The notes below the pieces were generated by a model. It was not told the DNA's origin, did no database searches, and saw only the letters and a list, made by a program, of their open reading frames with translations. DNA of 64,000 nucleotides, from assembly GCA_964343705.1 (NCBI GenBank), contig CAYFJX010000004.1:69583-133582 (forward strand), written 5' to 3'. This DNA is from an uncultured Methanosarcinales archaeon (GTDB taxonomy: Archaea; Nanobdellota; Nanobdellia; Woesearchaeales; UBA12501). The position numbers and the translations under genes are program-made. Below, one piece after another: positions 10,719 through 58,397 of this stretch (the first letter of the stretch is position 1; every line of letters begins with the position of its first letter).

Positions 10719-11071
10719 CTGCCAAGTTCAATTTCTATTTTCTTTTTGTCAACAGGAAAAATACGAGCTTGGTCTTTAACTTTAATCCCTGTAAATTTTG
10801 CAATTTCAGGGGGAATACGTACTACAAGTGAATTCCCTGACTTTCCAATATTAATTTTTTGATCAAGGCCAAAGAGTTTTTTCTTTTTTACTTCTTTTTC
10901 TATCTCTTCAAGTGTTGTGTCATCTAAGAATTCGCTATTGCATGAAGTACAGATTTCACATTCTCTTTCACCAAAGTCAATGCCAAAGAAGTTGACACTA
11001 CAAAAGCTTTTTTTTAATACTCCTCCGCAATTACAAGGATATTCACGTATTGTTTTTTCCATTTTTACCAT
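10715..11071 (-). CDS. Zn-ribbon + AbrB/SpoVT-like DNA-binding protein (putative antitoxin/regulator)
   Basis: Two Cys pairs (CNCGG...CEICTSC), then SLVVRIPPEIAKFTGIKVKDQARI, a swapped-hairpin AbrB-like motif. Confidence 0.5.
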   Translation of the reverse strand: MVKMEKTIREYPCNCGGVLKKSFCSVNFFGIDFGERECEICTSCNSEFLDDTTLEEIEKEVKKKKLFGLDQKINIGKSGNSLVVRIPPEIAKFTGIKVKDQARIFPVDKKKIEIELGS

Positions 11072-11304
11072 GTTTTTACTGTTATTGGATATATTTTTCT
11101 TACTTTTGCTTCCTTGTTGATGTATTCTTGATATACAATGGAATAATAGCGATGGAATGCTTCTGTAAGTCCTGTCTTTTTTTGTTTATGTTTTTGTCCC
11201 ATTTGTAATGCTGTGCGAACTTCATTCATTGAAATTCCTCGAAGCCACATACGTTCAAGTGCATGCTTTACTCTTTTATGTTCCCAATTGATTTTTAGTC
11301 TCAT
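11065..11304 (-). CDS. Small basic protein, possible toxin partner of 10715..11071
   Basis: 79 aa. Overlaps the downstream gene by 7 nt. No recognisable motifs. Confidence 0.35.
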   Translation of the reverse strand: MRLKINWEHKRVKHALERMWLRGISMNEVRTALQMGQKHKQKKTGLTEAFHRYYSIVYQEYINKEAKVRKIYPITVKTW

Positions 11305-11363
11305 GTATTACATGTAATACGCTGTAATTTATATAGTTTTCTGTTTTTTTTTTAAACATTGTA

Positions 11364-12059
11364 CTAATGATCTCTATTTCGAGCAAGTCTGTGTACATAC
11401 CTGCTTTGCCGTCCTAAGGGGGAAATCTCATCTTCCTCTGGAAGGTCAATTCCTTTGTACAATAGTCTGACCTGCCTCATGCCTTTTCCTTGCTTGTGCA
11501 TCTCAAGAACATTAACATATACATCCCCCACTAAAACATGGGGCTGCCAATGCACATCACTGTTTGCTTTAGTACCGGGGAATAAAATATCTCCTGATGG
11601 TTCGAGATGTCCTCTATGCAGGTGGAGAAATGCTCGACCACCGGGTTTTAAAACTCTATACGCTTCACGTATGGCACGTGCTTTGTCTACAACATACATT
11701 AATGCATAGGATGAGTATATGAGGTCAAAACTTCTTTTTGGAAATGGTAAATGGTGTGCATCAGCCTTAATACACTGTGCATCTTTATTTTGGCCATCAG
11801 GGTACGCAATATCAACACCTATTCCTTGCAGTCCTGGGAATTTCTTAACAAGGTCAGCAAGAGAATTTGCCTCACCGGTTCCTATGTCAAGAACACGTGG
11901 TTTGTCTATGGTTGCAAGAAATGCTTCCATGCGGTCTAAATTTTCTATACCGAGCGATTTATGTAATGTTGTCCATCCACGTTCTCGTCGTACGCCTGCA
12001 TCTTTCATCATTGCAATGCGTCGTTGGTTATCCTTTTCAAATTGTGTGTATGCAACCAT
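11364..12059 (-). CDS. Class I SAM-dependent methyltransferase
   Basis: Motif I is VLDIGTGEANSL, followed by IGVDIA and an acidic-loop pattern, consistent with a Rossmann-fold MTase. Confidence 0.7.
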   Translation of the reverse strand: MVAYTQFEKDNQRRIAMMKDAGVRRERGWTTLHKSLGIENLDRMEAFLATIDKPRVLDIGTGEANSLADLVKKFPGLQGIGVDIAYPDGQNKDAQCIKADAHHLPFPKRSFDLIYSSYALMYVVDKARAIREAYRVLKPGGRAFLHLHRGHLEPSGDILFPGTKANSDVHWQPHVLVGDVYVNVLEMHKQGKGMRQVRLLYKGIDLPEEDEISPLGRQSRYVHRLARNRDH

Positions 12060-12123
12060 ATCTGGTGGGGTGATTTCATCATATATAAGCTTTTCTATTT
12101 GTAATCACTAAGAAGTAGGTATT

Positions 12124-13809
12124 TTAGGCACTAAGTTTGTCGTCTTCATCTTCTTCAATATCATCAGCAAGTCGATCGAGGACAGTGGTTTCATCTTCTT
12201 CAGGGTGTTCATCCTCGGGCACTTCAGTATCTCCACCTGATGTATCTTCTATCTCACTATGTGCAGCCAATACGTGTCCAACCTCGTATTGCTCGGATCT
12301 TCTTTTAATGGCAGGCAAGGAGTGCATACAATGTCGTGCTCGTTCATCTAGAATGATGTATTTTCCTCCAAGAAATTCAGACGTCTCTGCTCGCTGCACA
12401 GTTGGATGGTGGTATCTATGCTTTAACATTGCAATAATCCCCTGGTCTAACTCGTCATGTGAAACAAATTTTCCTTCCTTGCTTGGAACCATACCGCCCC
12501 TTTGTAAACTGTACTTTGGCAAGAGCTCAAGTAATTCTCTACTCATCCATGGTTGGGGTGACACATGATACAATCCTTCAGCTTCTTGTATAAGTGTAAG
12601 TGCATCACCAAGTGGCATGTAAGCAAGCTCATCAAGATCAGGCAGCATGTCCTCTAAAACTTCTTCAACATATTGACCACTAAAATATAATGCACCCATA
12701 AACTCAACTGGTCTGCAACTAACAACAGCATCCTCAATTAAGCTTTCAGTAAACCGAACGCGGGACCGCTGAGCCTTATGGTGAACCAAATCAACAACAT
12801 CTGAAATAGTAAGTACATACATCTTCTGTATTAGCCCTTCATATGCTTCAACCAGTTTTGCCTTCGGTACAACAATCTTATCAGTTGGAGCAACAAACCC
12901 CATGACTTCTTTAAGTGCTTTGCGCATTGCCAGGCCAGAAATACCTGTGTCAACAGCATATTTTAACCTACGTGTTATCTGAGTGTATTCACTTGAATCA
13001 ATCAAATGTCCATAGTTGTCAAAAATCTCCCCACTGAGTTCACGTTCTTCTTCTATGTCATCAACAATGTCATCATCCATCTCACCCATACGTTCTTGTA
13101 ACTGCTTGTCTAATGAGGGGTCAGAAGTGCTTAGTGTCTTGTCAGTTTGTGCATGTGGATTCTTCGGTTTTCCAGCTTCTTCAATCGTTGCCCGCCTTTG
13201 TATTCGTCGTTCATTGTAGAACGTACTAACATCTAATTCACCTTCAACCTTTTTTTGTATTGTTCGTATTCTATCACCTTGTAAAAATTGCCGCTTCCGC
13301 AATGTAACTTGTTCTGTTGAATAAAAAAGAATTAATTCTGGATAGCTAGCATCCAAGACTTCCTCTGTGCCATTCCAGTGCTGGTATGTCCGAGGTATGC
13401 CAAGAGCAGCTGCTGCCACATCCTCAAGTAGAAAATCAAACTGGTCTGGACGTATCTTTCCATCTGTGACTGACAGTACTTCTCTTTCACCTAAATAATG
13501 AATACGCTCCTGCAAAAGACCAGGGGGGATTGGTACAAACCCAAGCTTAGGGATTTTCAAGGAATCAATTGGGATACTTTTCAATTGTTTTCCTAGTCCA
13601 GGGCTAAATCGTGTCAGTGCTGCCATTACTGATGCAGCATAATATGCAGTAGGCTTTCCAGGTTCTCGCAGCGCAAAAGCACCTTCAACATAAGGCAGAA
13701 GACCTTGCTCCTTTAATGTTTCTTCAGTTACTGTTTCCAGCGGCTGCCGAGAGTAAGCAAAACTCTTTGCATTGACCCCTGTTATAGTAACATCTAAAAT
13801 TTCTCCCAT
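12124..13809 (-). CDS. Hypothetical protein with a strongly acidic C-terminal tail; partner of the upstream GHKL ATPase
   Basis: 561 aa with no known motifs. C-terminus is DTSGGDTEVPEDEHPEEDETTVLDRLADDIEEDEDDKLSA. It is 93 nt downstream of the GHKL gene on the same strand. Confidence 0.5.
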   Translation of the reverse strand: MGEILDVTITGVNAKSFAYSRQPLETVTEETLKEQGLLPYVEGAFALREPGKPTAYYAASVMAALTRFSPGLGKQLKSIPIDSLKIPKLGFVPIPPGLLQERIHYLGEREVLSVTDGKIRPDQFDFLLEDVAAAALGIPRTYQHWNGTEEVLDASYPELILFYSTEQVTLRKRQFLQGDRIRTIQKKVEGELDVSTFYNERRIQRRATIEEAGKPKNPHAQTDKTLSTSDPSLDKQLQERMGEMDDDIVDDIEEERELSGEIFDNYGHLIDSSEYTQITRRLKYAVDTGISGLAMRKALKEVMGFVAPTDKIVVPKAKLVEAYEGLIQKMYVLTISDVVDLVHHKAQRSRVRFTESLIEDAVVSCRPVEFMGALYFSGQYVEEVLEDMLPDLDELAYMPLGDALTLIQEAEGLYHVSPQPWMSRELLELLPKYSLQRGGMVPSKEGKFVSHDELDQGIIAMLKHRYHHPTVQRAETSEFLGGKYIILDERARHCMHSLPAIKRRSEQYEVGHVLAAHSEIEDTSGGDTEVPEDEHPEEDETTVLDRLADDIEEDEDDKLSA

Positions 13810-13902
13810 CTGCCATAAGCTCCTGTGTTACACTACTTGTAGTGCTTCATGCTATAAATAAATACCTATTCTTGAATGCTAGCGGACTATACATTTCAAT
13901 CT

Positions 13903-16455
13903 CTAAACACGAACATGACCTAAAATAATATTTTCAGACTCAGCAACCCTTTGCATTGCATCAGCTTGATCCAGGCCACCTTGTATTAATGTGGCAACTG
14001 CATTGGTGAGAGGAAGATAGCCTAAGCTATCAAGCACAGCACTTCGGTCACCAGGCGTTTGTAACGCTTCCCCGGCATGGTCTAGCAAACGGTTGTACAA
14101 CATGTTTACATGCTTCCGTAACATACGAGGGTTGTTCACATTACCAAACATAACTCCACTTTTAAACCCAAACTCTACTAACTCTACGTCATCATCTGTG
14201 GTATATATTGTTGGATCAACTACAGTCATGTGTACTGACGCAGTTTGTTTTCCATAACAGAAAGAGCTTATTTCTAGACCATGTGCCAAAATTGCTGGTA
14301 CACCCTTGTTTGCTGAGCCAATCTGACGTAATCGTTGTCGAACTGCACTAATGTTTTTGCGTGTGTGTTCAGCAATCTCCTCTGCTGTAAGCACTGCATC
14401 AAGAGGGTATTCCTTTCCATTAAACACAACTCCTGTTGCATTAATTGCTCCTTTGTCAATAAGATCTTGAACATAGCGTTGTGTAAAATTATCACTGTAG
14501 GCACGCACTATGTCCAGTACAGCTTCATCTCCTTCTGTGTTTACATCTTCTAACTCATACCCTATAAGATTGCCTACTCTGTCCTCTTCAGGATCAAGCT
14601 CAACACTTGTTTTTCCTTTAAATCGTCGCTGATATGAAACAGGTAACTCATCAGTTAATGTTCCTTCTGCAAGAAGATGCACCAACTCTCCAAGATTTTC
14701 TTTAGGGAAGGTGTAAATTGGATGACTTCGAACTCTTGAAACATTCTTAACATACTTTGGCAGCTTTTTTGCTTTCTTAAGCTTTTCAATTTCTTTTGTT
14801 GCACGAGCCATGTGTGTTCTTCTAAAGTTAAATTCATCTGTTCCTTCTGGAACAGGCACATGTCGCACTCCTTCATGCAGAGTTACTTTGCCATCAAGGG
14901 TTTCAAGTAATGCTGACAAGTCCTTTCCTAAATATGTTTTTTCTCGGTATGGTTCAATAAGTCCTGCTTCTGCAAACCGTTTCAGCATCCACGCAGGATA
15001 CGTACGTGCTGTTGCATCACGCTGTTCATACAATCTATTGGGGTTTATGCTTTTTCTTGCTCTTTCTTGTTCTGGGGTTGTTTGTCCAGGTAAAATATTT
15101 GCCAGTCGTCGTCTTTCTCTACCACGTCCTATTTCCAGGTCAGTAAAAGCAGAAACTGCAGCTTCAGTTTTCTCATGGTCTTCAGATTCAAGTTTGCTAA
15201 AAGCAACAGCCATAACACCAAGTCTTCCAAGTACCCTGCGTGTTTCAGCTGGTCGATAGGTGGCAAGATCAAATGCTCTTGAAGTAGGATTAACATACAC
15301 AATACGAGCGCTTTCAGAAACATACAAAACTTTACCTGCATGCTCTTCACTGAACACAACTTTAAAAGGTGATCCTCCATCCATAAACTCACCCATCATA
15401 GCTTCTACAGTGGGTAAGTAATCAGTTAGTACTTCCTTACACTTTGCAATTTTGTTTTCTTTTACTTTGGCACTCATGTCACGGCGAGCTTGACGTAGAA
15501 CATCATGAATAATATCGCGTACTGCTCTTCCTTTTGCTGAAGCAAAAAACTGTTCACGGTCAATGGTGATGTACTCTTCTAAATCATCTACATGGACAAC
15601 ACCATAGATCCTGCTTTTAAGATCTTGTTCAGGAATAAGATCTTCGTTTTTTCCTCCAACAGCTCTATCGTTAACTTTTGTAAAAAGACCATTATCATCT
15701 CCAAGTTTTTTTGAAGCAAGAAAAATTGTTCCATGTACGTGGCCTGCCGCGGGATCATGAACATCAATGACATATTCAAGGGGTATCCCAAGATCTCGTC
15801 GTGGAACAAGATTATCATTCACGTATATCTCTGCTAACTTTCGAGGAAGTTCATCACGAAGAAGTCGCATTAAATTCATTTCATCAATGTATGTTTCGTC
15901 ATTGAGATCCATATCAAACAGTGTCAGGCGAGCACCATGTTTTTCAGGATTACATGGTTCCCTAGATACAACCAGTCTTTTTTCAATAGTGTCAGCATCA
16001 TCAAATGTTTCAGTGACTGTGTAGTGAGTACCTTCTTTCCATGACTCAACAGTCACTCCACCCCAAAATGCTCGTATACCAAGAACAGCAACACCAAATT
16101 TTCCTGTTCTCTTTCTTCCTTCTGGAGACAAGATTTCTTCTTTTTTGACACTATCGCCAATTCTTACAAATGATGTAAGACCTTCAACATCCATTCCTCT
16201 TCCGTTACCTTCAACAATCACCTTTCCTTCATCTTGATGCAGCCAGACTTTGTATACATCTGCATCTTCATCATGCTCATTTGAACCAAGTTCAAGAATA
16301 ATACGTTTAGGATGTTTAAAAAGTGATTTTCCCACAGTGACCATGAAGTCATCACCATAGGTGCGTTGGATAACTACATCTTCAAGTGTTTGATCTCCTG
16401 TGTTTGCAGCTGTGACTGCTTCTTCATGAGCCATGGATCTTAGTGTAGTAAGCAT
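13903..16455 (-). CDS. GHKL-superfamily ATPase (Bergerat fold; MORC/HSP90-like), 850 aa
   Basis: N-box ILELGSNEHDEDAD, G1 box VEGNGRGMDVEGL and G2 box GKFGVAVLG, in the canonical order within the first ~150 aa. There is no HisKA domain. Confidence 0.6.
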   Translation of the reverse strand: MLTTLRSMAHEEAVTAANTGDQTLEDVVIQRTYGDDFMVTVGKSLFKHPKRIILELGSNEHDEDADVYKVWLHQDEGKVIVEGNGRGMDVEGLTSFVRIGDSVKKEEILSPEGRKRTGKFGVAVLGIRAFWGGVTVESWKEGTHYTVTETFDDADTIEKRLVVSREPCNPEKHGARLTLFDMDLNDETYIDEMNLMRLLRDELPRKLAEIYVNDNLVPRRDLGIPLEYVIDVHDPAAGHVHGTIFLASKKLGDDNGLFTKVNDRAVGGKNEDLIPEQDLKSRIYGVVHVDDLEEYITIDREQFFASAKGRAVRDIIHDVLRQARRDMSAKVKENKIAKCKEVLTDYLPTVEAMMGEFMDGGSPFKVVFSEEHAGKVLYVSESARIVYVNPTSRAFDLATYRPAETRRVLGRLGVMAVAFSKLESEDHEKTEAAVSAFTDLEIGRGRERRRLANILPGQTTPEQERARKSINPNRLYEQRDATARTYPAWMLKRFAEAGLIEPYREKTYLGKDLSALLETLDGKVTLHEGVRHVPVPEGTDEFNFRRTHMARATKEIEKLKKAKKLPKYVKNVSRVRSHPIYTFPKENLGELVHLLAEGTLTDELPVSYQRRFKGKTSVELDPEEDRVGNLIGYELEDVNTEGDEAVLDIVRAYSDNFTQRYVQDLIDKGAINATGVVFNGKEYPLDAVLTAEEIAEHTRKNISAVRQRLRQIGSANKGVPAILAHGLEISSFCYGKQTASVHMTVVDPTIYTTDDDVELVEFGFKSGVMFGNVNNPRMLRKHVNMLYNRLLDHAGEALQTPGDRSAVLDSLGYLPLTNAVATLIQGGLDQADAMQRVAESENIILGHVRV

Positions 16456-16583: not shown

Positions 16584-16711
16584 CCCTCCATAGCTCAATT
16601 GGTAGAGCGCAGGGCTGTAGATAAACTCACCCACCGACTAGGCATATAGCCATGAATGAAAGTGGGACAGCCGATACCTTGAGGTTCCCGGTTCGAGTCC
16701 GGGTGGGGGGA
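16584..16711 (+). tRNA. tRNA-Tyr (anticodon GTA) with a 55-nt canonical intron (37/38) at 16621..16675
   Basis: Acceptor ccctcca/tgggggg (C1:G72). D arm gctc-aattggta-gagc. Anticodon stem caggg/ccttg with loop ctGTAg|intron|a. T arm cccgg-ttcgagt-ccggg. Discriminator A. Confidence 0.75.
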
Positions 16712-16856
16712 CTCTTATTTTTTTCTTATCGTTCCGAGAGGTTGAGCTTGCGAAACCTCTCATTGCATGCTAGGATGGTAAGGAGTGCAATCTCCTTACT
16801 CTTTGGTGGGGGGACTCATTTTCTTCTTATGGTTTTAAATACCATTACTAAATTCT

Positions 16857-18167
16857 GTGGACTATATGGCTGAGGATATACTAGAAGGTCGGTTAAAAGC
16901 ACTAAAAGGCAGCAGAGCTAGAAGACAGTTCCTTGAAGGACTATATGAAGAAGTGTGTAGACTAGAAGGTAATTTTAATTTTCCTTACATTGCTGTTGAA
17001 GCATTAGGTCAATTAGTACTGGATCTTACTAAGAAGCGGGAAAGAGGCAAGACCCCAACAGCAAAGAAGACGACTGTTGTGCTTAATACAACTCACTCTT
17101 TTAGATCCCAACCTGTTTTTGATACGCACCACAATCGGTTTGTATACTTTGCTCATTTTCTTGGAAACCAACACAGGCTTTACAATGATTCCTCTGGTAA
17201 TCCTGACCCCTCACCTTTGGAGGCAGTAGCACAAGTAGAAGGTAGAACCACCCGATACACGTTTCTAACTCCAGAGGGCTTACAGCAAAAAATATTTGAA
17301 ACAGATATGTATGAACCAGTACGGAGGATGCCCTCTTCAGTCTTTGCATCATCAGTAGGTGTAGCAACAAGAAAAGCAAACGCCAATGGCTCAATCAATT
17401 TCCGAAACGAATTATATGCCTTTGGCACTAGTCATAAAGGGAAAGATGTTCTTGTCTTTTACGCCCCAGGAGACAAATGCTACTTTTTTGATTTGTGGGG
17501 TGAGATGTTATTTGAGCGACTTAGTAATGAAGAGGTAATCCAACAGCGCAAGATACAAAAAATGCTTGCCATACAGGATGAGATGGAAGATCTTGATAGT
17601 CTTGATAGTAGCTCTGAGCTGCTTTATGCACAACTGAAAGAAGAATGGTCAAAAGATCCCCAAGAGTTTGCAACTCATTATGGTAGGACTTATGTTATAA
17701 CAGGGGAAGTACAAGGAACTATGAATGAGTTGGGAGAGGTTGGTTTTGCACACTTTCGAGACCAACACTTCCTTTCTCGAGTCCATGGAGCACGTGAACA
17801 TGCAGGTAAAGAAGCAAAGCTAGTTATACAAGGTCCATACATGACTGTTCATCATGAAGGGGAGATGATTAATGCTCATCGTCTTGGAGGTATCATTTAT
17901 TACACTAAAACAATGCGGCGGGTTAACAATGCTCACCTTGTTAATATCAGAACTGTTGGTAACACAAAACAACTCAAGCGTGATATCTCTGGTTCTCTTT
18001 ATCATTTCTCTATGCGTGCGTTTAAGAAAGAGTATTCTGGGGACCTTAAAGAAGCGCAAGCAGTGGGGATTATTGTTGACACACAACGAGAAAAGTATGA
18101 AGCTCTTATTATAGAAAAAGATGGTGCTTTTGTTAGTGTGCCATTGCAACTACATGCTGTGTATTAA
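16857..18167 (+). CDS. Hypothetical protein
   Basis: 436-aa ORF with no recognisable motifs. The true start may be internal. Confidence 0.4.
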   Translation: MDYMAEDILEGRLKALKGSRARRQFLEGLYEEVCRLEGNFNFPYIAVEALGQLVLDLTKKRERGKTPTAKKTTVVLNTTHSFRSQPVFDTHHNRFVYFAHFLGNQHRLYNDSSGNPDPSPLEAVAQVEGRTTRYTFLTPEGLQQKIFETDMYEPVRRMPSSVFASSVGVATRKANANGSINFRNELYAFGTSHKGKDVLVFYAPGDKCYFFDLWGEMLFERLSNEEVIQQRKIQKMLAIQDEMEDLDSLDSSSELLYAQLKEEWSKDPQEFATHYGRTYVITGEVQGTMNELGEVGFAHFRDQHFLSRVHGAREHAGKEAKLVIQGPYMTVHHEGEMINAHRLGGIIYYTKTMRRVNNAHLVNIRTVGNTKQLKRDISGSLYHFSMRAFKKEYSGDLKEAQAVGIIVDTQREKYEALIIEKDGAFVSVPLQLHAVY

Positions 18168-18177
18168 TAGAATGCAT

Positions 18178-20484
18178 TTAACGTGCTTCAACCCAAGCTT
18201 GATATTGATCATGGCGTTCTTTTACATCAGCCATCAATGAGGCAACTGCATCTTGTTTATCACCAGGATGACCAGGAATAAAGTTTGCAGCATTGGTGTG
18301 GTTTACAACTATTAAATTATGTTTTCCTACTGGGAGAATTAAAGAAGGTGTTTCTTGGGCACGCTTCATGATTTCATCTGACCCCACATAGGTTTTCTCA
18401 TGGCTTGCTATGTTCCTAATAGAGTACACTGCAAAGGGTCCGTCTTCACCATTTATTACAGGTGTTGTTTGTAGCCATGCCTGAAGTTCAAGAGGATTTC
18501 CAACCTGCCCAAGATCAGGTGCAGTTACATAAAATATATGTCGTTTGCGTTGATTTCCAATTGTTTGCTTATACACTTCTCCTTTCTTAAGTATGTCATC
18601 TACTCTCCCTCTTGTTATACCTTTTGCTTCACGGAGCTCTTTTGCTGTTACAAGCACTAATCCTTGATGATAATGTATTGCTTGAACCCTTCCAGTAGAC
18701 AGTGGCTCCTCGAGAGTTGGCTCGTGTTGTATAAGAGTGCCATCTGGTTCCATCTTCTGCCTCCAGCGCTGAAATTGTTCATAGCGCTGTCCAACATCAG
18801 CTAAAAGATCCTCAACAAATCCTCCTCTTTTTGTGTTGGTTGATACAAAGTGGCGAGCATTGTCTTTGTTAACAATGAAATATTTGCTTGCTCTTTGTTC
18901 TGAGTGTGTACCAATCACTCTTATTAGGTCTTGTTCAAAAACTTTTTCTAATGCTTCTACAGTTTTCATTCCTGGGATAGTGCCAAGTCTCACTGTGTTA
19001 TATAATGCAAAGGGTGTGTCTATACCAACAAAACGATTTGCCTTAACTTCGGAGAGAAGCTCATTATAACTTGATCCATGGCGTTCGAAAACAGCAGGAA
19101 GTATTTCAGGAGTGAGAAAGTAAACACGTATTGGTCGTTTCTCACCAAACTCTTCAGCATACAATAATCCTCCTTCAATAAGCCTTTGTAATTCCTTGCG
19201 GTTTTTGGTGTCCTTAATTTTGTGGAATACAACGTGGGTTATAGGGAAAAATCCATCTTGGTAACATGCGTCAACCTCATTGTTAAGTGATAAGGTTATT
19301 GAGGGGTTAGTTTTAGGTGGTTCCGGTTCTGTATTTGTTTTTTCTTCAAGACTTGCTGCTTCAGTAGGGGTAGCTGGTATACGAACTGCTGACAAAGCAG
19401 ATATTTCATCTACCTCTCCTGCATCATTCTGTTCTAGTTCTTCATCATGTTGCTCTTCATCAAGTCCTGCTTCATATGCTTCTAATGCTTTTAATTTTTC
19501 CCACAAGTTTTTCCTACTGATTCCAAGGAGTTTGGCAGCTTCTGCTTTTCTTCCTCCTGTGTGGGCGAGTGCAATTTTGATATAGCTAAGCTCTGCCTCA
19601 CGCATAACTTCTACCAACGGTCGAAATCCTCGACGTCTTCTGTATGTTTGTCCACCTGTTAAATCAAGAGAGTTTTGGTCAAAAATAATATGTTGCGCTC
19701 TGAGGCTTTCTCCGTCACTCAAGAGCACTGCCCGTTCAATAATATTTTCTAACTCCCTAACATTCCCACCCCACTCATAATTTTGTAAAATCACAGCTGC
19801 GTTTCCATCAATGCTAGTGACTCTTGTGCCATATTTTTTATTATTCTTAGCAACAAGATATGCGGCAATATCCAAAAGGTCACTTCCCCTATCTCGTAAG
19901 GGAGGTACATGTAATGGGAATACATTCAGTCGGTGAAATAGGTCTTGCCGAAACGTCCCTTTTTCAATTTCCTGCACAAGATCCTTATTTGTTGCTGCAA
20001 GCACACGTACATCAATAGATGCTGTTTGAGTTGCACCAACGGGGACTACTTCTCGTTCTTGTAACACATTAAGCAGCTTTGCTTGCATGTCAGGACTCAT
20101 TTCTGAAACTTCATCAAGGAATATAGTGCCTCTATCAGCTTCTCGGAAATGTCCTTTTCTTGCTTGACTTGCACCAGTAAACGCACCTTTAACATGACCA
20201 AACAATTCTGATTCCATGATTCCCTCAGGAATTGCAGGGCAATTTACATGGACAAACGGATTTTTCTTAGTTTGATTAGCTCCACTAGCATGTAATGCTT
20301 TAGCAATCAGTGTCTTCCCAGTTCCTGTTTCACCTGTAAGCAAAACACTAGCAGGCTTGCCTGCAAGAATGTTAAGAAATTGGTATAACTGCAGCATTGC
20401 AGGGCTTTTTCCTACAATCTCAAGATCTCCATTAATTTTGTAGATTCCCTGCTCAGCGTCATAATTGGCAATATCTCCTGTCAT
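18178..20484 (-). CDS. Sigma-54-interaction-domain AAA+ ATPase (bEBP-like, GAFTGA motif) + Fis-type HTH + duplicated C-terminal domain
   Basis: Walker A is LLTGETGTGKTLIAKA. ESELFGHVKGAFTGAS is the GAFTGA signature. Also has RVLAATNKDL...FRQDLFHRLNVFPLHVPPLRDR and the HTH GGRKAEAAKLLGISRKNLWEKLK. The last ~300 aa form two repeats of about 130 aa (..ADVGQRYEQFQRW.. / ..ADVKERHDQYQAW..). Confidence 0.75.
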   Translation of the reverse strand: MTGDIANYDAEQGIYKINGDLEIVGKSPAMLQLYQFLNILAGKPASVLLTGETGTGKTLIAKALHASGANQTKKNPFVHVNCPAIPEGIMESELFGHVKGAFTGASQARKGHFREADRGTIFLDEVSEMSPDMQAKLLNVLQEREVVPVGATQTASIDVRVLAATNKDLVQEIEKGTFRQDLFHRLNVFPLHVPPLRDRGSDLLDIAAYLVAKNNKKYGTRVTSIDGNAAVILQNYEWGGNVRELENIIERAVLLSDGESLRAQHIIFDQNSLDLTGGQTYRRRRGFRPLVEVMREAELSYIKIALAHTGGRKAEAAKLLGISRKNLWEKLKALEAYEAGLDEEQHDEELEQNDAGEVDEISALSAVRIPATPTEAASLEEKTNTEPEPPKTNPSITLSLNNEVDACYQDGFFPITHVVFHKIKDTKNRKELQRLIEGGLLYAEEFGEKRPIRVYFLTPEILPAVFERHGSSYNELLSEVKANRFVGIDTPFALYNTVRLGTIPGMKTVEALEKVFEQDLIRVIGTHSEQRASKYFIVNKDNARHFVSTNTKRGGFVEDLLADVGQRYEQFQRWRQKMEPDGTLIQHEPTLEEPLSTGRVQAIHYHQGLVLVTAKELREAKGITRGRVDDILKKGEVYKQTIGNQRKRHIFYVTAPDLGQVGNPLELQAWLQTTPVINGEDGPFAVYSIRNIASHEKTYVGSDEIMKRAQETPSLILPVGKHNLIVVNHTNAANFIPGHPGDKQDAVASLMADVKERHDQYQAWVEAR

Positions 20485-20505
20485 ATATGGATAAGCCTAT
20501 CTTAT

Positions 20506-21234
20506 TTAAGTGTTTCTGGTCTGTCCAACCATCTCTTTATAACAGTGATCCATGATGAACTTTAAATTCTCAATATCTTCTTTGTTATACTCCACTAACA
20601 ACTCTAAATACTCACGATCGCCACTGGCATGAAATGCTTTCCATAAGTCAACTGGATTGCCTCTTAGATTTTGTGGTCGTTGCAAGCCAAGCAGTTCTTC
20701 AACAACTTTTAATCCACCTTTCAAACCAAGTTTGACACACAGTGGTTTCAAATCAATGTGTGGTCCATTAAATTGTATGTTAAATTGCTTTCTTAATTTT
20801 GGAAGATCAAACGCTCCACCATTAAACGTCACGAGCACTTTAAACTGATCAAGTACTTTTTGCACCAGTGCAGCATCAAGATTAGCACCTGCAACAAACA
20901 CCTTAGTATCATAATAATTAGAAATGCCCACTATGGTTATCTCACCGCGTGAGTCTGTTTCAATATCAACAAAGCCAACATCATCACGAAAGTGCTCATA
21001 CAAACGCCAGTGCTCTGTACTGGGAAAACACCTAAAGAATGTTGCATCATCTGCAACAAGTGCATCCTGTGCCTCCTGGATCTTTCTGTCATAATGTGCT
21101 TTGCGTCCAGCAGAAAACCCTTTAATCTCACCAGCACGCAAGAAATCAGCCCAGTCAGTAATACCTTGCTTCCAAAGCTGGCGCTCTTTGCCAGCTCCGA
21201 TCTTATCCAGAAATACAAACGTGTTTCGTATCAT
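20506..21234 (-). CDS. RNase H-like 3'-5' exonuclease (YprB/DnaQ-like fold)
   Basis: FVDIETDSRGEITIVGI and FNGGAFDLPKL match the Exo I and Exo II motifs. It is 22 nt upstream of the AAA+ gene on the same strand. Confidence 0.55.
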   Translation of the reverse strand: MIRNTFVFLDKIGAGKERQLWKQGITDWADFLRAGEIKGFSAGRKAHYDRKIQEAQDALVADDATFFRCFPSTEHWRLYEHFRDDVGFVDIETDSRGEITIVGISNYYDTKVFVAGANLDAALVQKVLDQFKVLVTFNGGAFDLPKLRKQFNIQFNGPHIDLKPLCVKLGLKGGLKVVEELLGLQRPQNLRGNPVDLWKAFHASGDREYLELLVEYNKEDIENLKFIMDHCYKEMVGQTRNT

Positions 21235-21267
21235 AAAAAAAGAGAAAAAAAAGAAAGAATAAAAAAG

Positions 21268-24246: not shown

Positions 24247-25608
24247 TCACGCAACTCTTCGTTCAGCTTCTGAAACAGCACGTCTTAGTACTCGATGCGG
24301 TGCTGTTTCAGGGTTGGCAAATACGTGTTGGATATCTCCCCAGCGGTACACTTGTAGTATTGCTTTATACACCTTCAGTTCATCGATGGGGCTGGCATCA
24401 GGTGCTTTTTCCTTGATTAAAGTATTGATTCTGCTAGTGGATTTTGCATACATCAATGCTAGGTTTCTTTGTGTTACTGGTGTGTCTTCATTCCACAACT
24501 CAGGTGACCAGTATTCATCTTGTTCACCATTAAAATATTTGAAAATTCTTTCTTTCATCTGAGCTGCTGAGTAATTACTTTCTACTTTTTCCTCTAACTG
24601 TGCTGTTATTGCATCAACATGAGGTGCAAGGTCTCCAAATTGGTATACTTCCACACCACCTACCATTGTTCGTTCTGAGGTAATACCACGAACTGCAAGC
24701 TCAGGAGCAACGTGCTTTGTCATTGGAGGATGAAACCACTCCTCAATATTGAAGTACTTCTTTGCATTCTTAAATTCGCCACTTTTCATACTTTCTTGAG
24801 CAGCGTCATATGCTTTTCTTAAAAAGCTTTGAACAGGAGAATGTCGAGGGAAAACTACAAAACTAGCAGCAAGATAGTGTGGAGCTCGCATCTCATACAA
24901 TGCTACTGCTGCTTCCATTTCTTGGGCCAGCGCCACTTCTTGCTCCGGAGTTAGGAGAGGTGCTTTTCCTGCTTCTCGCAACCATAATTTCACCAGGTCT
25001 TTAGTTACTGCAGCTCCTTCTTCATCTTGTCTTTGCCGGCTTTCCTTAAGTATCTTACTTTCCGGGATATTAGTCTCTGCAGCATACATTGATTCTGGAA
25101 TTTCCCCTTCATACCCCAGTGACTTCATGACTTCTTTAAGTTCTTCTTTGCTTATATCAACAGCTTCATCTTTTTCAGCTTCGTGTTCTTCATAAAAACT
25201 TTCAAGTTCATCACGAGTAGTAAATACTTGCGAAGGAGTGAAACCTTCTGCAGTCTTTTTTTCTCGGAAGTCAACTATGCTTACTCCTTTTTTTTCATAT
25301 GCAACTGTTACATGGTAGCTGTTTGGCCCTTTTTTTTTCTTGACTGGTTTTGCATTGAACATGGCTCCAGCAACAAACATACTATCACCATCTTGCATGC
25401 TGACCACAAGTGTGTCTCTAGTAAGTTGGTCAACTTGCACTTCTAAAGTGGCATACACTAAGAAATTCTTTGCATTATCAGAAGGCAGAGGTAATGTGGC
25501 CACGTATTCCTCGCCACTTTTTTGAAGGGGGATAGTGAGGTCTCCAAGAATTTTCAAATAGTCGCTTCTGCTTTGTACTGGCTCCATTATCTCAGCAGGC
25601 ATTCCCAT
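24247..25608 (-). CDS. Hypothetical protein (453 aa)
   Basis: Long ORF. Contains a short stretch resembling sigma-70 region 1.2 (LWLREAGKAPLLTPEQEVALAQ), but no further sigma regions. Confidence 0.4.
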   Translation of the reverse strand: MGMPAEIMEPVQSRSDYLKILGDLTIPLQKSGEEYVATLPLPSDNAKNFLVYATLEVQVDQLTRDTLVVSMQDGDSMFVAGAMFNAKPVKKKKGPNSYHVTVAYEKKGVSIVDFREKKTAEGFTPSQVFTTRDELESFYEEHEAEKDEAVDISKEELKEVMKSLGYEGEIPESMYAAETNIPESKILKESRQRQDEEGAAVTKDLVKLWLREAGKAPLLTPEQEVALAQEMEAAVALYEMRAPHYLAASFVVFPRHSPVQSFLRKAYDAAQESMKSGEFKNAKKYFNIEEWFHPPMTKHVAPELAVRGITSERTMVGGVEVYQFGDLAPHVDAITAQLEEKVESNYSAAQMKERIFKYFNGEQDEYWSPELWNEDTPVTQRNLALMYAKSTSRINTLIKEKAPDASPIDELKVYKAILQVYRWGDIQHVFANPETAPHRVLRRAVSEAERRVA

Positions 25609-27988: not shown

Positions 27989-29464
27989 GTGGTTGATTTG
28001 TATCGTAAGCACGCATGGACTATGGTAGTATTTCTCTTATTACTTCTTCCAACAGTCAGTGCAACTCTTCCTGATGACATTGTTCTTGAAACAAAACTAA
28101 TCAAAAACCGTATAGGTCCAGCACAATGGGCAGAATTTGAACTCACCATCCACAATAATGGATTGGCTTTTGACGCATTTACCATTCTCAATGACTTGGA
28201 AGGCACTGAATGGAGCATGCTTACTGAACCACAAACCAGAACAGACTTGATTATCAAAGGAGGAACCAGTGAGTCAATCAAAATTCTTCTCAAAGATATC
28301 AATCTTCCACGTGACTACAAACGACCCTATTTTGTTAAAGTTTTTGTGTACACAAAAGATCGAAAAGTACGAAAGTATGTAAAACTCCCTGTGTACCTTA
28401 TGCCAGGCGATGTGCGTGAAGGAGTTCATTTTGAAGTAACTCCTGACTTTCCAAAACAACTTGACCCACGACGAAGTCACTCATTCATTGTAAATGTAAA
28501 AAATGAAAACTGGTATGATTACGAAGATATTCGCGTGTCTGTGAAAAGTGCAGATTTTGAACGTGTATCATTGCTTACCTTTGCACCTAATGAAACAAAG
28601 TCAGTTGAGTTTACTGTTTTTCTTCCTCCTGACACACCACCAAAAAATGAAAAAGTTGCTCTGACAGTTTCGAAAAAAGGTACAGTATACTTTCTTGACG
28701 AGCAAAGCTATACTGTCATTGGTTACAACACACCTTTTCAACAAAACCAAGAAGAAACAAGTAGTTTTTTGAAAACAAAGAAGACACTGTACATAAAAAA
28801 TGTTGATAATGATGCTCAAAGCCAGGAGATTACACAGCCTGTTTCAACTTTTGCCAGCTTTTTTACATCAACTGATCCAGAAACGCAAACTGAAACAATA
28901 AACAGCGAAAAACACTACGTGTGGGATATCTCATTAAACCCTAAAGAAGAAGTAAAAATTATCATAAACACTAATTATAGGGGGTTATTCTATGCTGGAA
29001 TCCTCCTTGCAATCGTTCTTTTCTTGTGGTACATGTTTCAGTCACCTGTGGTTGTAGTTAAACGCGCAGAGTTTGTAAAGACACAACAAGGAGGGATTAA
29101 CTCCATTGACATTCGATTAGTGATCTATAATAGGGGTGGTAGGGAGTTACGAGATGTCACCCTTGTTGAACATGTTCCAACACTTATGAAAACTCACTGG
29201 AAAAGTAAGCACACTTTTCACCCTAAACGTGTATCTCATGTGAAACATGGTAAGATTATGTACTGGGAGTTTGACTTAACACCTAAAGAAGAACGAATTA
29301 TTTCGTACACTCTTATTCCTCGCTTGAGTGTGATTGGTGATTTGACCTTGCCACGGACCATGTTACGGTACACCTGGGACAAACACAAACTCAAATCATA
29401 TTCTAATGAAGTGCGTGTGAGCAATCTTAAACTAGGTGAGCAAGAAGAAGACTTGTTGGATTAA
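27989..29464 (+). CDS. Membrane-anchored protein with a large extracellular N-terminal region (signal peptide + one TM near aa 335)
   Basis: N-terminal signal MVVFLLLLLPTVSA, internal TM GILLAIVLFLWYMF, 491 aa. Confidence 0.5.
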   Translation: MVDLYRKHAWTMVVFLLLLLPTVSATLPDDIVLETKLIKNRIGPAQWAEFELTIHNNGLAFDAFTILNDLEGTEWSMLTEPQTRTDLIIKGGTSESIKILLKDINLPRDYKRPYFVKVFVYTKDRKVRKYVKLPVYLMPGDVREGVHFEVTPDFPKQLDPRRSHSFIVNVKNENWYDYEDIRVSVKSADFERVSLLTFAPNETKSVEFTVFLPPDTPPKNEKVALTVSKKGTVYFLDEQSYTVIGYNTPFQQNQEETSSFLKTKKTLYIKNVDNDAQSQEITQPVSTFASFFTSTDPETQTETINSEKHYVWDISLNPKEEVKIIINTNYRGLFYAGILLAIVLFLWYMFQSPVVVVKRAEFVKTQQGGINSIDIRLVIYNRGGRELRDVTLVEHVPTLMKTHWKSKHTFHPKRVSHVKHGKIMYWEFDLTPKEERIISYTLIPRLSVIGDLTLPRTMLRYTWDKHKLKSYSNEVRVSNLKLGEQEEDLLD

Positions 29465-38748: not shown

Positions 38749-38806
38749 TCAAAATAATTAAAAATCTTATTTTTCTTTTTCTGACTTTTTGTAGGTGATC
38801 TGACTT

Positions 38807-38927
38807 CAGCAGATTCTACAAAATCAAAGAACATTTCAACTGCACAGATTAATTATTATTTAATCCGCCCTGAAGGGCGGTTAAAACTGTGCAATATAAG
38901 ATTTGATTAAGAAAAAGCTCAGGCTTT
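38807..38927 (-). repeat. REP-A intergenic element, copy 1 (reverse orientation; divergent inner hairpin ccgccc-tgaa-gggcgg)
   Basis: Aligns with the copies at 44728, 48681 and 52591. Shares the outer tgcacag...ctgtgca stem and the flanks ctttgattttgtagaat / cctgagc. Confidence 0.7.
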
Positions 38928-38957
38928 ACCTGATTTTACCTAATTCTCGTTATTTTC

Positions 38958-55695: not shown

Positions 55696-55845
55696 ATGTC
55701 ACAAAAGCAATATATCATAACAAAAAAGATAGCCAAACAAGGCGATAAGGCAGTTATCTGTATTCCTGCTTTGCTTCAGGAAGAATTAAAACCTTCAACA
55801 GTTGTGAAAGTAACTATTGACGTAATTAAGGAGGCAGGGCAATGA
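55696..55845 (+). CDS. AbrB/SpoVT-like small DNA-binding protein (49 aa), first gene of a three-gene operon
   Basis: MSQKQYIITKKIAKQGDKAVICIPALLQEELKPSTVVKVTIDVIKEAGQ is a swapped-hairpin-like pattern. Its stop overlaps the next ATG (ATGA). It is too short for the ORF track. Confidence 0.45.
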   Translation: MSQKQYIITKKIAKQGDKAVICIPALLQEELKPSTVVKVTIDVIKEAGQ

Positions 55846-56897: not shown

Positions 56898-56898
56898 A

Positions 56899-57912: not shown

Positions 57913-58397
57913 AATAAAGGTTAGGTAAATCTTTATAAACACCAGCAACTTCTTTATTTTTGTCCTCATTGCTCTACTTCTTTGGTGGAACGGCATGGGC
58001 TCTACACGTCTCTTTGCTAGCGCCTCTTATTCAAGAGGACATAAAATTCAACCACAACAGCAAATGCCTGAAGTGGTGGTGCTAGAAACAGCAAGGAGGC
58101 TACTTAAGGGCGGCCTGGCTCGGTTGCAGCAACAATAACTTCAACCTTAATGCCAACAACAATCTTAACAGCAATAATACTGCTCGTGGAATAGCCCTAC
58201 CTCAGCGAGGACTTTTCTTTAAACTATTTAAGAGAGTTCTCTTCCCAATCACTAAAGCTAGTTTTCAGTTCAATAACATCATTTTCGAGATTTTTCAGTC
58301 CATCCAAAAGCTCTTTATAGTCCATACATGTCAGGTATAAATTAGAACTTTTAAAATTTTCTTCTATTTATGTTATCTAGGGTAGCTACCTGCTAGA

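What the first reader, a model, noticed from the sequence alone, without database searches (positions are those of the whole stretch)
18178..21234. Bacterial-type sigma-54 activator AAA+ domain (intact GAFTGA) in an archaeal genome, fused to a duplicated C-terminal domain and upstream of a YprB-like exonuclease gene
Archaea lack sigma-54. This 768-aa protein nevertheless carries an intact enhancer-binding-protein module (ESELFGHVKGAFTGAS, R-finger region, Fis-type HTH). It has no N-terminal receiver or GAF/PAS sensor. Instead, after the HTH, an acidic linker leads to two tandem ~130-aa repeats of unknown fold. The exonuclease gene lies 22 nt upstream of it on the same strand, and the exonuclease appears to be RNase H-like. 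The GAFTGA loop is normally kept only for contacting sigma-54. Its conservation here suggests either a very recent bacterial transfer, or repurposing as a substrate-engaging loop in a non-transcriptional AAA+ machine. The arrangement is reminiscent of RtcR-type or defence-associated AAA+ ATPases.
Basis: partly seen in the sequence, partly recalled or inferred. Interest (0 to 1): 0.62.

Follow-up and report, generated by a model that had tools for sequence, protein, structure and literature searches.

The report
Sigma-54-type ATPase in DPANN archaeon
A tiny-celled (DPANN, Woesearchaeota-like) archaeon carries, on a strain-variable island next to a tRNA gene, a complete bacterial-style "enhancer-binding" ATPase whose sigma-54-gripping loop is intact although archaea have no sigma-54, and it belongs to a rare archaeal family marked by a new nucleic-acid-binding-like tail domain, so the motor probably works on a different, unknown partner.

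Summary
ORF 18178..20484(-) encodes a 768-aa protein. It has a full NtrC/EBP AAA+ module (PF00158, 219 bits), all ATPase motifs, ESELFGHVKGAFTGAS, an AAA lid and a Fis-type HTH, and no N-terminal sensor. An acidic linker follows, then a duplicated C-terminal domain of about 170 aa per copy, not about 130. The window is archaeal, with thermosome, archaeal GluRS and Spt5; its closest relatives are Woesearchaeota/Nanoarchaeota.

"Very recent bacterial transfer" is not supported. The best bacterial identity is 56%, codon usage is native, and the protein sits in a small clade of at least 8 sequences. Three member contigs carry archaeal markers. Clade members are only 47-70% identical in the AAA+ domain, yet keep GAFTGA (one has GSFTGA).

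The C-terminal unit is new. Only 4 other clusters were found among 1.84 billion representatives, with no Pfam match and no significant fold match. It models confidently as two winged-helix-like modules plus a helix, is basic, and replaces the Fis HTH in half of the members.

The exonuclease link is incidental. The exonuclease is a core Woesearchaeota gene (at least 422 homologues). A contig with ~87% nucleotide identity over the conserved flank lacks the EBP and the neighbouring 436-aa gene. No other family locus with sequenced flanks has the exonuclease.

Most likely function: a nucleic-acid-tethered, ATP-driven remodeller acting on a non-sigma-54 target. This is inferred, not shown.

The parts
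18178..20484 (-). 768-aa EBP-type AAA+ protein. Order of parts: short N-terminal clade motif, AAA+, lid, Fis HTH, acidic linker, two C-terminal units.
   Evidence: ORF; Pfam; ZraR 1ojl E 1e-75 over res 23-331
20419..20484 (-). N-terminal 22 residues (..NYDAEQGIYKING..). Shared short motif of the clade (NY-x3-E/P-x-Y). No sensor or receiver domain.
   Evidence: Sequences; coordinates
19912..20418 (-). Sigma-54-interaction-type AAA+ core (res 23-191) with Walker A, L1 loop, Walker B, sensor I and R-fingers.
   Evidence: PF00158 219 bits. 68 of 75 columns that are at least 95% conserved in bacterial EBPs are kept.
20170..20187 (-). GAFTGA loop-1 motif (res 100-105).
   Evidence: Kept in 5 of 6 full-length clade members; one has GSFTGA.
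19684..19896 (-). AAA+ lid (res 197-267) with sensor II GNVRELEN. In 5 of the 6 members with a full AAA+ domain the usual WPGN proline is replaced (WGGN/FGGN/WKGN/WRGN); fragment P0122 keeps WPGN.
   Evidence: PF25601 65.8 bits; alignment; sequences
19486..19605 (-). Fis-type HTH (HTH_8, res 294-333).
   Evidence: PF02954 46.3 bits
19270..19485 (-). Acidic, probably disordered linker (res 334-405; 20 D+E, 3 K+R).
18751..19269 (-). C-terminal unit 1 (res 406-578). Two beta-alpha-alpha-beta-beta-alpha winged-helix-like modules plus a long helix ending in the Y..F..W motif. Basic, pI 8.6.
   Evidence: HMM; AF2 pLDDT 82 and pTM 0.78; ScpB WH2 E 5.5e-4
18184..18678 (-). C-terminal unit 2 (res 603-767), a diverged copy of unit 1.
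20485..20505 (-). 21-nt spacer between the exonuclease stop and the EBP start. An A/T-rich TTAAATAA lies 17-26 nt upstream of the ATG and could be a TATA box for a leaderless transcript (inference only).
   Evidence: Sequence
20506..21234 (-). 242-aa RNase_H_2 (PF13482, DEDD-type) exonuclease. A conserved Woesearchaeota core gene that is a neighbour by insertion, not a partner.
16857..18167 (+). 436-aa ORF of unknown function, convergent with the EBP gene (10 nt between the stop codons). Absent together with the EBP gene from the closest syntenic contig.
   Evidence: no hit in Pfam, NCBIfam, PADLOC, PHROGs or PDB
16584..16711 (+). Intron-containing tRNA gene. The variable segments lie on both sides of it, and its 3' end faces the 436-aa/EBP segment.
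   Evidence: Rfam RF00005 51.6 bits; homologous tRNA in L094 and L095; 3'-end repeat 16707-16733 / 16808-16834

Best explanation
The gene encodes a complete, ATPase-competent NtrC/EBP-type AAA+ motor that has been resident in DPANN archaea for a long time. It belongs to a small, rare clade. Members have no sensor domain and share a short N-terminal motif. Most share a previously undescribed basic C-terminal unit of about 170 aa, made of two winged-helix-like modules plus a helix. That unit accompanies the Fis-type HTH in the window protein and P0121, and replaces it in P0123, L091 and L092.

In this genome the gene lies, with a 436-aa ORF, in a strain-variable segment beside a tRNA gene. That segment sits just downstream of a conserved core exonuclease gene, so the adjacency to the exonuclease is an accident of insertion.

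Proposed mechanism (inferred). The protein is tethered to nucleic acid, most likely DNA, through the HTH and the four winged-helix-like modules. It assembles into an AAA+ ring and uses ATP hydrolysis and its GAFTGA pore loop to grip and remodel a protein partner other than sigma-54. That partner would be a DNA-bound regulator or a component of the archaeal transcription machinery.

Shown: domain content, intact motifs, archaeal host, clade membership, accessory location, and lack of linkage to the exonuclease. Inferred: nucleic-acid binding by the C-terminal units, ring formation, and the existence and nature of the non-sigma-54 target.
For: Intact EBP module and motifs.

Archaeal host. Two independent assemblies.

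Clade evidence. An exhaustive search with the C-terminus found only 4 other clusters in 1.84e9 representatives, all fused to or fragments of EBP-type AAA+. Three more members came from JGI metagenomes. AAA+ identity within the clade is 47-70%, against at most 56% to bacteria. The six AAA+ domains form an NJ clade with bootstrap 61-66%. Five of those six replace the usual WPGN proline, and all share an N-terminal motif.

Member contigs that are archaeal: L003 has uS10_euk_arch at 137 bits and EF-1alpha; L006 has DUF655.

Retention of GAFTGA/GSFTGA and all ATPase motifs at about 50% divergence implies purifying selection in hosts without sigma-54. Bacterial EBPs that act without sigma-54 lost the loop.

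C-terminal unit: AF2 pLDDT 82; profile hit to the ScpB winged helix at E 5.5e-4; internal duplication; pI 8.2-9.9. It occupies the position of the DNA-binding domain in HTH-less members.

Accessory status. Contig L094 is syntenic, with ~87% nucleotide identity over the MS-channel/exonuclease stretch and 71-84% over the other aligned blocks (MS-channel protein 98.6%, FtsZ 89%). It lacks window 16857..20505, and homology breaks 24 nt before the exonuclease stop. A tRNA lies at the junction, and a tRNA lies 97 nt upstream of the P0121 gene in L003. Codon usage is native.
Against: No partner or target is identified. No gene neighbour is conserved among the family loci, though only one other long contig exists.

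The clade bootstrap is only moderate, from NJ on about 250 columns with bacterial sampling limited to the top 120 hits.

Fold searches gave no significant match. The best were tandem KH domains at E 5e-3 with TM 0.23. RNA binding, or a purely protein-binding role as in ScpB, is therefore not excluded.

Only 64 kb of the genome could be inspected, so a sigma-54 gene elsewhere cannot be formally ruled out.

Sequence conservation of GAFTGA could partly reflect structural constraints of the AAA+ fold.
Confidence: 0.5

Rival explanations
1. Sigma-independent DNA-binding regulator. The AAA+ domain serves only as an ATP-dependent oligomerisation or DNA-binding switch, as in TyrR or Rhodobacter/Caulobacter NtrC. 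The GAFTGA loop has no partner and is conserved for structural reasons or by chance.
For: HTH_8 plus winged-helix-like modules point to DNA binding. Precedent exists for EBP-derived regulators that work without sigma-54. No target was found.
Against: The cited sigma-54-independent EBPs (Caulobacter and R. capsulatus NtrC, NtrX, VspR) lack the GAFTGA motif. Here the loop and its ESELFG context are kept in all 6 full-length members at about 50% divergence. R-fingers and sensor II, needed for hydrolysis, are also intact.
Confidence: 0.2
2. Regulator or effector of a mobile element or defence island. The EBP and the convergent 436-aa ORF would form a two-gene accessory cassette acquired at a tRNA hotspot, possibly working with the adjacent GHKL-ATPase/561-aa/methyltransferase block. 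Its function would lie in conflict, for example sensing or remodelling invader proteins.
For: The EBP and 436-aa genes are jointly absent from the closest syntenic contig. tRNA genes adjoin the gene in two loci. A second accessory block with a GHKL ATPase and a methyltransferase lies on the other side of the tRNA. A toxin/antitoxin gene occupies the same slot in L095.
Against: The 436-aa ORF has no homologue next to other family members. There are no PADLOC, PHROG, plasmid, phage or viral-contig matches for the C-terminal unit or the 436-aa ORF. No integrase and no att duplication were seen by eye in the sequence at the exonuclease-side junction.
Confidence: 0.15
3. Functional operon with the upstream RNase H-like exonuclease, forming an RtcR-like, RNA-repair or defence AAA+ plus nuclease machine.
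For: Same strand with a 21-nt spacing. PADLOC RtcR_PspF2 model scores 342 bits on the AAA+/HTH part.
Against: The exonuclease has at least 422 full-length homologues at 56-86% identity in Woesearchaeota/Nanoarchaeota. The family-defining C-terminal unit has only 5 clusters among the representatives. 0 of 5 exonuclease contexts carry an EBP, and 0 of 4 other EBP loci carry the exonuclease. The synteny break lies at the 3' end of the exonuclease gene. There is no CARF domain, and the RtcR equivalog scores 298 against a cutoff of 650.
Confidence: 0.05
4. Canonical sigma-54 activator. Either the contig is really bacterial or chimeric, or the gene is a very recent, possibly non-functional, bacterial import.
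For: The AAA+/HTH part is indistinguishable in motif content from bacterial EBPs.
Against: Archaeal markers lie on both sides, and synteny with other Woesearchaeota contigs is conserved. Two assemblies agree. Bacterial identity is at most 56%. Codon usage is native. No Sigma54 domain appears in 48 scanned ORFs. The -24/-12 consensus is not enriched: 57 matches against 46+-6.7 expected, none exact. A 2025 survey found no sigma-54 EBPs in 380 archaeal proteomes and states that archaea lack sigma factors (PMC12316311).
Confidence: 0.04

Closest known systems
Bacterial enhancer-binding proteins of the NtrC family without a regulatory domain (PspF / HrpR-HrpS type), and ZraR/NtrC1 central plus C-terminal domains
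   Same: The AAA+ core, lid and Fis HTH align end to end (ZraR 1ojl E 1e-75; PspF E 1e-49). GAFTGA, Walker A/B, R-fingers and sensor II are present. There is no N-terminal sensor, as in PspF.
   Different: The host is an archaeon with no sigma-54 detected. All NCBIfam equivalog scores are far below cutoff (PspF 229 against 443). There are about 430 extra C-terminal residues: an acidic linker plus two copies of a new domain. No pspA-like partner is present. Five of the six members with a full AAA+ domain replace the WPGN proline.
RtcR (CARF-AAA+-HTH activator of the rtcBA RNA-repair operon)
   Same: The AAA+ and HTH part matches (NF038308 298 bits; PADLOC RtcR_PspF2 342 bits).
   Different: No CARF domain: the match starts at model position 181 (NF038308) or 168 (PADLOC RtcR_PspF2). 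There are no rtcA or rtcB neighbours. The score is below the 650-bit cutoff.
Sigma-54-independent EBP derivatives (Rhodobacter/Caulobacter NtrC, NtrX, VspR, TyrR)
   Same: They function without sigma-54, which must also be true here if the host lacks it.
   Different: Those proteins have lost the GAFTGA loop. This clade keeps it.
Sigma-70-like genes reported in Woesearchaeota (Castelle et al. 2021, PMC8204110)
   Same: Another bacterial-transcription-derived component found in the same archaeal lineage, also with no known regulatory logic. The window itself carries a 453-aa ORF with a sigma-70 region 1.2 match.
   Different: A different protein family. No link to the EBP clade has been shown, and the 453-aa ORF has no homologue near P0121.
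ScpB-type tandem winged-helix domains
   Same: The only sequence-level hit of the C-terminal unit (6juv_A WH2, E 5.5e-4, positions 11-83). It shares the tandem arrangement of small winged-helix-like modules.
   Different: The match is weak and partial. There is no structural match above noise (best TM 0.23). ScpB winged helices bind proteins (ScpA/SMC), whereas the units here are basic and sit where EBPs carry their DNA-binding domain.

Membership tests
NtrC/EBP-type AAA+ (Pfam PF00158 Sigma54_activat) | AAA+ domain scoring above the family gathering threshold | tested here: met
   219.4 bits against a cutoff of 20.2
NtrC/EBP-type AAA+ (Pfam PF00158 Sigma54_activat) | GAFTGA loop-1 motif in the ESELFGH.KGAFTGA context | tested here: met
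   Res 91-106 read ESELFGHVKGAFTGAS. The motif is conserved in the clade.
NtrC/EBP-type AAA+ (Pfam PF00158 Sigma54_activat) | Catalytic set: Walker A, Walker B, sensor I, arginine fingers, sensor II | tested here: met
   GETGTGK, IFLDE, AATN, FRQDLFHRL and GNVRELEN are all present. 68 of 75 near-invariant bacterial columns are kept.
Functional sigma-54 activator (bEBP in the strict sense) | Host encodes sigma-54 (rpoN) and a bacterial RNA polymerase | tested here: not met
   The host is archaeal. No Sigma54 domain was found in 48 window ORFs. The rest of the genome is not available. The literature states that archaea lack sigma-54 (PMC12316311).
Functional sigma-54 activator (bEBP in the strict sense) | -24/-12 (TGGCAC-N5-TTGCW) promoters at target genes | tested here: not met
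   57 matches with up to 2 mismatches against 46+-6.7 expected, and none exact
Functional sigma-54 activator (bEBP in the strict sense) | ATP-dependent remodelling of the sigma-54 holoenzyme closed complex | not testable with these tools
   Needs biochemistry
Functional sigma-54 activator (bEBP in the strict sense) | C-terminal Fis-type HTH that binds upstream enhancer sites | tested here: inconclusive
   HTH_8 is present (46.3 bits), but no candidate enhancer repeats were found in nearby intergenic regions. The HTH is absent in half of the clade.
RtcR | N-terminal CARF domain | tested here: not met
   Only 22 residues precede the AAA+ domain. The alignment to NF038308 starts at model position 181.
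RtcR | Equivalog score and rtcBA neighbourhood | tested here: not met
   298 bits against a cutoff of 650. No RtcA or RtcB domain occurs among the neighbours.
PspF | Equivalog score and a divergent pspA operon | tested here: not met
   TIGR02974 scores 229 against 443.6. No PspA domain was found in the window ORFs scanned.
Known anti-phage defence systems (PADLOC) | Match to a system-specific component together with its partners | tested here: not met
   Only RtcR-type AAA+/HTH models hit. The exonuclease, the 436-aa ORF and the 561-aa ORF have no hits.
RNase_H_2 / YprB-like 3'-5' exonuclease (PF13482), for the upstream gene | Domain above threshold with DEDD-type acidic motifs | tested here: met
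   93.6 bits against 22. Motifs VDIETD, FNGGAFD and YNKED are present and invariant in orthologues.
New clade: DPANN sensor-less EBP with C-terminal double winged-helix-like unit (defined here) | EBP AAA+ preceded only by the NY..E/P.Y motif and followed by at least one C-terminal unit with invariant P-F, F and W positions | tested here: met
   The window protein has two units. The other members are P0121, P0122, P0123, P0124, L091, L092 and L093.

The most novel reading that the evidence does not exclude
A lineage of DPANN archaea has domesticated the bacterial sigma-54 activator motor for a sigma-54-independent job. Ring-shaped, nucleic-acid-tethered GAFTGA pore loops would thread or remodel an archaeal protein. 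Candidates are a basal transcription factor, a DNA-bound repressor, or one of the enigmatic sigma-70-like proteins reported in Woesearchaeota. This would make it the first enhancer-binding-type, ATP-driven transcription or chromatin remodeller in Archaea, and a natural experiment on what the GAFTGA loop can recognise.
Probability: 0.3. Interest if true: 0.8.

Novelty: new variant of a known kind. Interest (0 to 1): 0.55.

Why it matters
EBP-type AAA+ proteins are treated as strictly bacterial partners of sigma-54, and the GAFTGA loop as a sigma-54-specific device. A 2025 survey even used 380 archaeal proteomes as a negative control and found none (PMC12316311). This clade keeps the loop and the whole catalytic apparatus through about 50% sequence divergence, on archaeal contigs wherever marker genes are present. 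That implies the motor has another substrate.

Identifying that substrate would show how a specialised transcription-activating unfoldase can be rewired. It would also add to the unexplained set of bacterial transcription parts found in DPANN archaea, such as the sigma-70-like genes reported in PMC8204110. Finally, it introduces a new ~170-aa domain, probably nucleic-acid-binding, with no detectable relatives outside the clade.

The finding also carries a caution. The tight adjacency to the exonuclease, which looked like an operon, is an insertion artefact.

Tried and rejected
- AF2 on the 369-aa C-terminus without an alignment failed (pLDDT 36.6). The 6-sequence alignment of one unit then gave pLDDT 82.
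- A profile search of the 5.8-billion-protein database with alignment A1 returned only P0124 and missed known members, so it was uninformative.
- The C-terminus was not found in GTDB representative genomes.
- No paralogue of the C-terminal unit exists elsewhere in the window.
- The different C-terminus of P0004 is unrelated to the unit and has no Pfam hit.
- No sigma-54 region-I-like peptide was found among the window ORFs.
- The sigma-54 promoter consensus is not enriched.
- No convincing enhancer-like inverted repeats occur in nearby intergenic DNA.
- No conserved neighbour is shared between the window and the other family loci.
- The gene upstream of P0123 is not an exonuclease.
- There were no matches of the C-terminal unit on plasmids or phages. 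The degenerate DNA pattern derived from its motifs found nothing in viral contigs. Neither the 436-aa nor the 850-aa ORF has relatives in viral contigs.
- PHROGs and PDB gave nothing for the 436-aa ORF.
- Literature searches found no report of EBPs in archaea or DPANN.
- Cluster look-ups gave no organism names.

Full report

Yes. The window has a 768-aa ORF at 18178..20484(-) and a 242-aa ORF at 20506..21234(-), separated by 21 nt.

Pfam places four things on the large protein:
- Sigma54_activat at res 23-191 (219 bits, E 3e-65).
- AAA_lid_14 at res 197-267.
- HTH_8 at res 294-333.
- Nothing before residue 23 and nothing after residue 340.

The first 336 residues align end to end with solved EBPs: ZraR 1ojl at E 1e-75, followed by NifA, NtrC1, FleQ and PspF. 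All functional motifs are present: GETGTGK, ESELFGHVKGAFTGAS (GAFTGA = window 20170..20187), IFLDE, AATN, FRQDLFHRL and GNVRELEN. The linker, res 334-405, has 20 acidic and 3 basic residues.

The C-terminal duplication is significant (BLASTP E 1e-9). However, the units span res 406-578 and 603-767, about 170 aa each rather than about 130.

The upstream gene is a PF13482 RNase_H_2 exonuclease (93.6 bits) with DEDD-type motifs.

**2. Is the host archaeal?**

Yes. Archaeal markers lie on both sides of the locus:
- Thermosome (NF041082, 805 bits), archaeal GluRS (TIGR00463, 556 bits) and FtsZ.
- FKBP26.
- Spt5-NGN and TrmB.

The thermosome's best genomic matches, at 65-73% identity, are Nanoarchaeota/Woesearchaeota MAGs. 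The same gene order is found in two separate ENA assemblies of PRJEB17505 and on a 170-kb NCBI contig. A chimeric contig is therefore unlikely.

No Sigma54 domain was found in the 48 window ORFs scanned. The -24/-12 promoter consensus is not enriched.

**3. What family is it?**

A full-length search returned thousands of bacterial EBPs at 45-51% identity over the AAA+/HTH part only. It also returned one sensor-less relative, P0004.

An exhaustive phmmer search of the C-terminus against 1.84 billion representatives found only four other clusters: P0121 to P0124. All are EBP-type AAA+ proteins or fragments of them. All have no N-terminal sensor and carry one C-terminal unit.

A degenerate DNA pattern built from unit motifs recovered three more members from JGI metagenomes: L091, L092 and L093.

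Evidence that member contigs are archaeal:
- L003 carries archaeal uS10 and EF-1alpha.
- L006 carries DUF655.

Relationships among the AAA+ domains:
- Within the clade they are 47-70% identical. This is no closer than their distance to the best bacterial EBPs, which is 51-56%.
- The six AAA+ domains nevertheless form a neighbour-joining clade, with bootstrap 61-66%.
- The HTH-less trio (P0123, L091, L092) is supported at 100%.
- Independent shared characters are the short N-terminal NY..E/P.Y motif, replacement of the WPGN proline in five of the six members with a full AAA+ domain (fragment P0122 keeps it), and the C-terminal unit.
- 63-68 of the 75 columns that are at least 95% conserved in bacterial EBPs are retained.
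- GAFTGA is intact in five of six full-length members and is GSFTGA in the sixth.

The gene's GC content (0.407), GC3 (0.267) and codon usage are typical of the window.

Taken together, this rules out a very recent bacterial import. It points to long residence in archaea under purifying selection.

**4. The C-terminal unit**

The unit has no Pfam match, no paralogue in the window, and no match on plasmids or phages. The degenerate DNA pattern built from its motifs found nothing in viral contigs.

With a six-sequence alignment, AlphaFold2 gave a confident model (pLDDT 82, pTM 0.78). The model shows two beta-alpha-alpha-beta-beta-alpha modules followed by a long helix. That helix ends in a conserved Y..F..W motif.

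The two modules are homologous to each other (hhalign probability 85%, E 6e-6). The window protein therefore carries four such modules.

The only sequence-level relative in the PDB is the second winged helix of ScpB (E 5.5e-4). Foldseek found nothing significant in PDB or BFVD. Its best hits were tandem KH domains at E 5e-3 and TM 0.23.

The units are basic, with pI 8.2-9.9. In P0123, L091 and L092 they directly follow the AAA+ lid, where bacterial EBPs carry their DNA-binding HTH. I infer a nucleic-acid-binding role, with DNA more likely than RNA. This has not been demonstrated.

**5. The exonuclease is a bystander**

The exonuclease has at least 422 full-length homologues at 56-86% identity. 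Those that carry a source name are called 'ribonuclease H-like domain-containing protein' from Woesearchaeota/Nanoarchaeota.

In five distinct orthologue contexts (L094, L095, L097, L098, L101) no EBP is present. Conversely, none of the four other family loci with sequenced flanks has the exonuclease.

The closest syntenic contig, L094, is ~87% identical in nucleotides over the MS-channel/exonuclease stretch and 71-84% over the other aligned blocks. Its MS-channel protein is 98.6% identical, its exonuclease 86% and its FtsZ 89%. It keeps the order MS-channel, exonuclease, tRNA..., TrmB, FKBP26, FtsZ, Spt5. It lacks two window segments:
- 16857..20505, which holds the 436-aa ORF and the EBP gene.
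- About 10720..16455, which holds small ORFs, a methyltransferase, a 561-aa ORF and an 850-aa GHKL ATPase.

These two segments lie on either side of an intron-containing tRNA at 16584..16711. Rfam detects it at 51.6 bits, and ARAGORN missed it.

Nucleotide homology with L094 stops 24 nt before the exonuclease stop codon, and the last residues of the two proteins differ.

In L003 a tRNA gene lies 97 nt upstream of the P0121 gene.

The EBP gene is therefore an accessory gene in a tRNA-associated variable region.

An A/T-rich TTAAATAA lies 17-26 nt upstream of the EBP start codon. It could be the gene's own TATA box. This is inference only.

**6. Mechanism**

Three points from the literature frame the interpretation:
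[quoted passage not shown] Activation has been described as ATPase-driven limited unfolding (PMC11839083, title and abstract).
- The GAFTGA loop-1 motif is needed for interaction with the N-terminal regulatory domain of sigma-54. EBPs that work without sigma-54 (Caulobacter and R. capsulatus NtrC, NtrX, VspR) lack the motif (10.1101/2023.06.06.543975).
- Archaea lack sigma factors, and a 2025 survey found no sigma-54-specific EBP in 380 archaeal proteomes (PMC12316311).

Retention of the loop and the catalytic residues across this archaeal clade therefore argues that the motor still grips a polypeptide, but not sigma-54.

The best-supported model is a nucleic-acid-tethered AAA+ ring that remodels an unknown partner. 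Tethering would be through the Fis HTH and the winged-helix-like modules.

No candidate partner emerged:
- No neighbour is conserved among family loci.
- No region-I-like peptide is present in the window.
- The co-inserted 436-aa ORF has no detectable homologues or domains.

Woesearchaeota have been reported to carry sigma-70-like genes of unknown role (PMC8204110). The window itself has a 453-aa ORF with a sigma-70 region 1.2 match. This is suggestive context, not evidence.

**7. Comparison with known systems, and novelty**

By domain and motif criteria the protein is a member of the NtrC/EBP AAA+ family. Its architecture is closest to PspF-type sensor-less EBPs.

It is not an RtcR, PspF, NorR or NifA orthologue, because all equivalog scores are far below cutoff. 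It also fails the defining contextual features of a sigma-54 activator: host sigma-54 and -24/-12 promoters.

I rate it a new variant of a known kind. The motor is known, the host domain of life is unexpected, and the C-terminal domain is new. Interest is moderate to high (0.55). The surprise is real, but the function is inferred and the family is tiny and uncultured.

Noticed in passing
window 24247..25608 (-): A 453-aa ORF matches bacterial sigma-70 region 1.2 (PF00140, 36.6 bits, res 204-233, 'DLVKLWLREAGKAPLLTPEQEVALAQEME'). It also has weak RpoD and PHROG sigma-factor hits over the same stretch, but no other sigma regions. Castelle et al. 2021 (PMC8204110) reported sigma-70-like genes prevalent in Woesearchaeota with unknown role. 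This ORF may belong to that phenomenon.
   Followed up: partly
window 16584..16711 (+): An intron-containing tRNA (128 nt, Rfam 51.6 bits) that ARAGORN did not report. Its 3' end is partly duplicated about 100 nt downstream (16707-16733 against 16808-16834, 78% identity), like an old att remnant. The duplication is also present in the relative L094.
   Followed up: partly
window ~10720..16455: A second accessory block, absent from the syntenic contig L094. It holds small ORFs, a SAM methyltransferase (11364..12059), a 561-aa unknown ORF (12124..13809) and an 850-aa GHKL/HATPase_c_3 protein (13903..16455). The 850-aa protein has weak hits to a type II REase model and phrog_6203. This may be a defence or restriction-like island.
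   Followed up: partly
window 57965..58108 (+): Rfam RT-16 RNA (RF03019, 71.7 bits), immediately downstream of two ORFs without Pfam hits (55842..56897 and 56839..57912).
   Followed up: no
window 29461..31602 (-) and 27989..29464 (+): A 713-aa SMC/Rad50-like ATPase whose best PADLOC hit is LmuB (130 bits). It is convergent with, and overlaps by 4 nt, a 491-aa ORF of unknown function. Both are conserved, at 59% and 54% identity, in the Woesearchaeota contig L095.
   Followed up: partly
window 38805..38938 and L094 1566..1707: A ~140-nt intergenic sequence downstream of the thermosome gene is 73% identical to intergenic DNA after the exonuclease gene in the relative L094. The L094 copy (the one read) contains a GC-rich hairpin. 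It may be a repeated small element or a non-coding RNA.
   Followed up: no
window 21235..21267 (-): A 33-nt spacer between the MS-channel-like gene and the exonuclease gene is an almost pure T/C run (TTTTTTATTCTTTCTTTTTTTTCTCTTTTTTT). It is typical of an archaeal oligo-T terminator and/or a promoter-proximal element.
   Followed up: no
L003 1..2756: The archaeal contig carrying family member P0121 also encodes a giant protein of at least 2913 residues that runs off the locus. No domain information is available for it.
   Followed up: no
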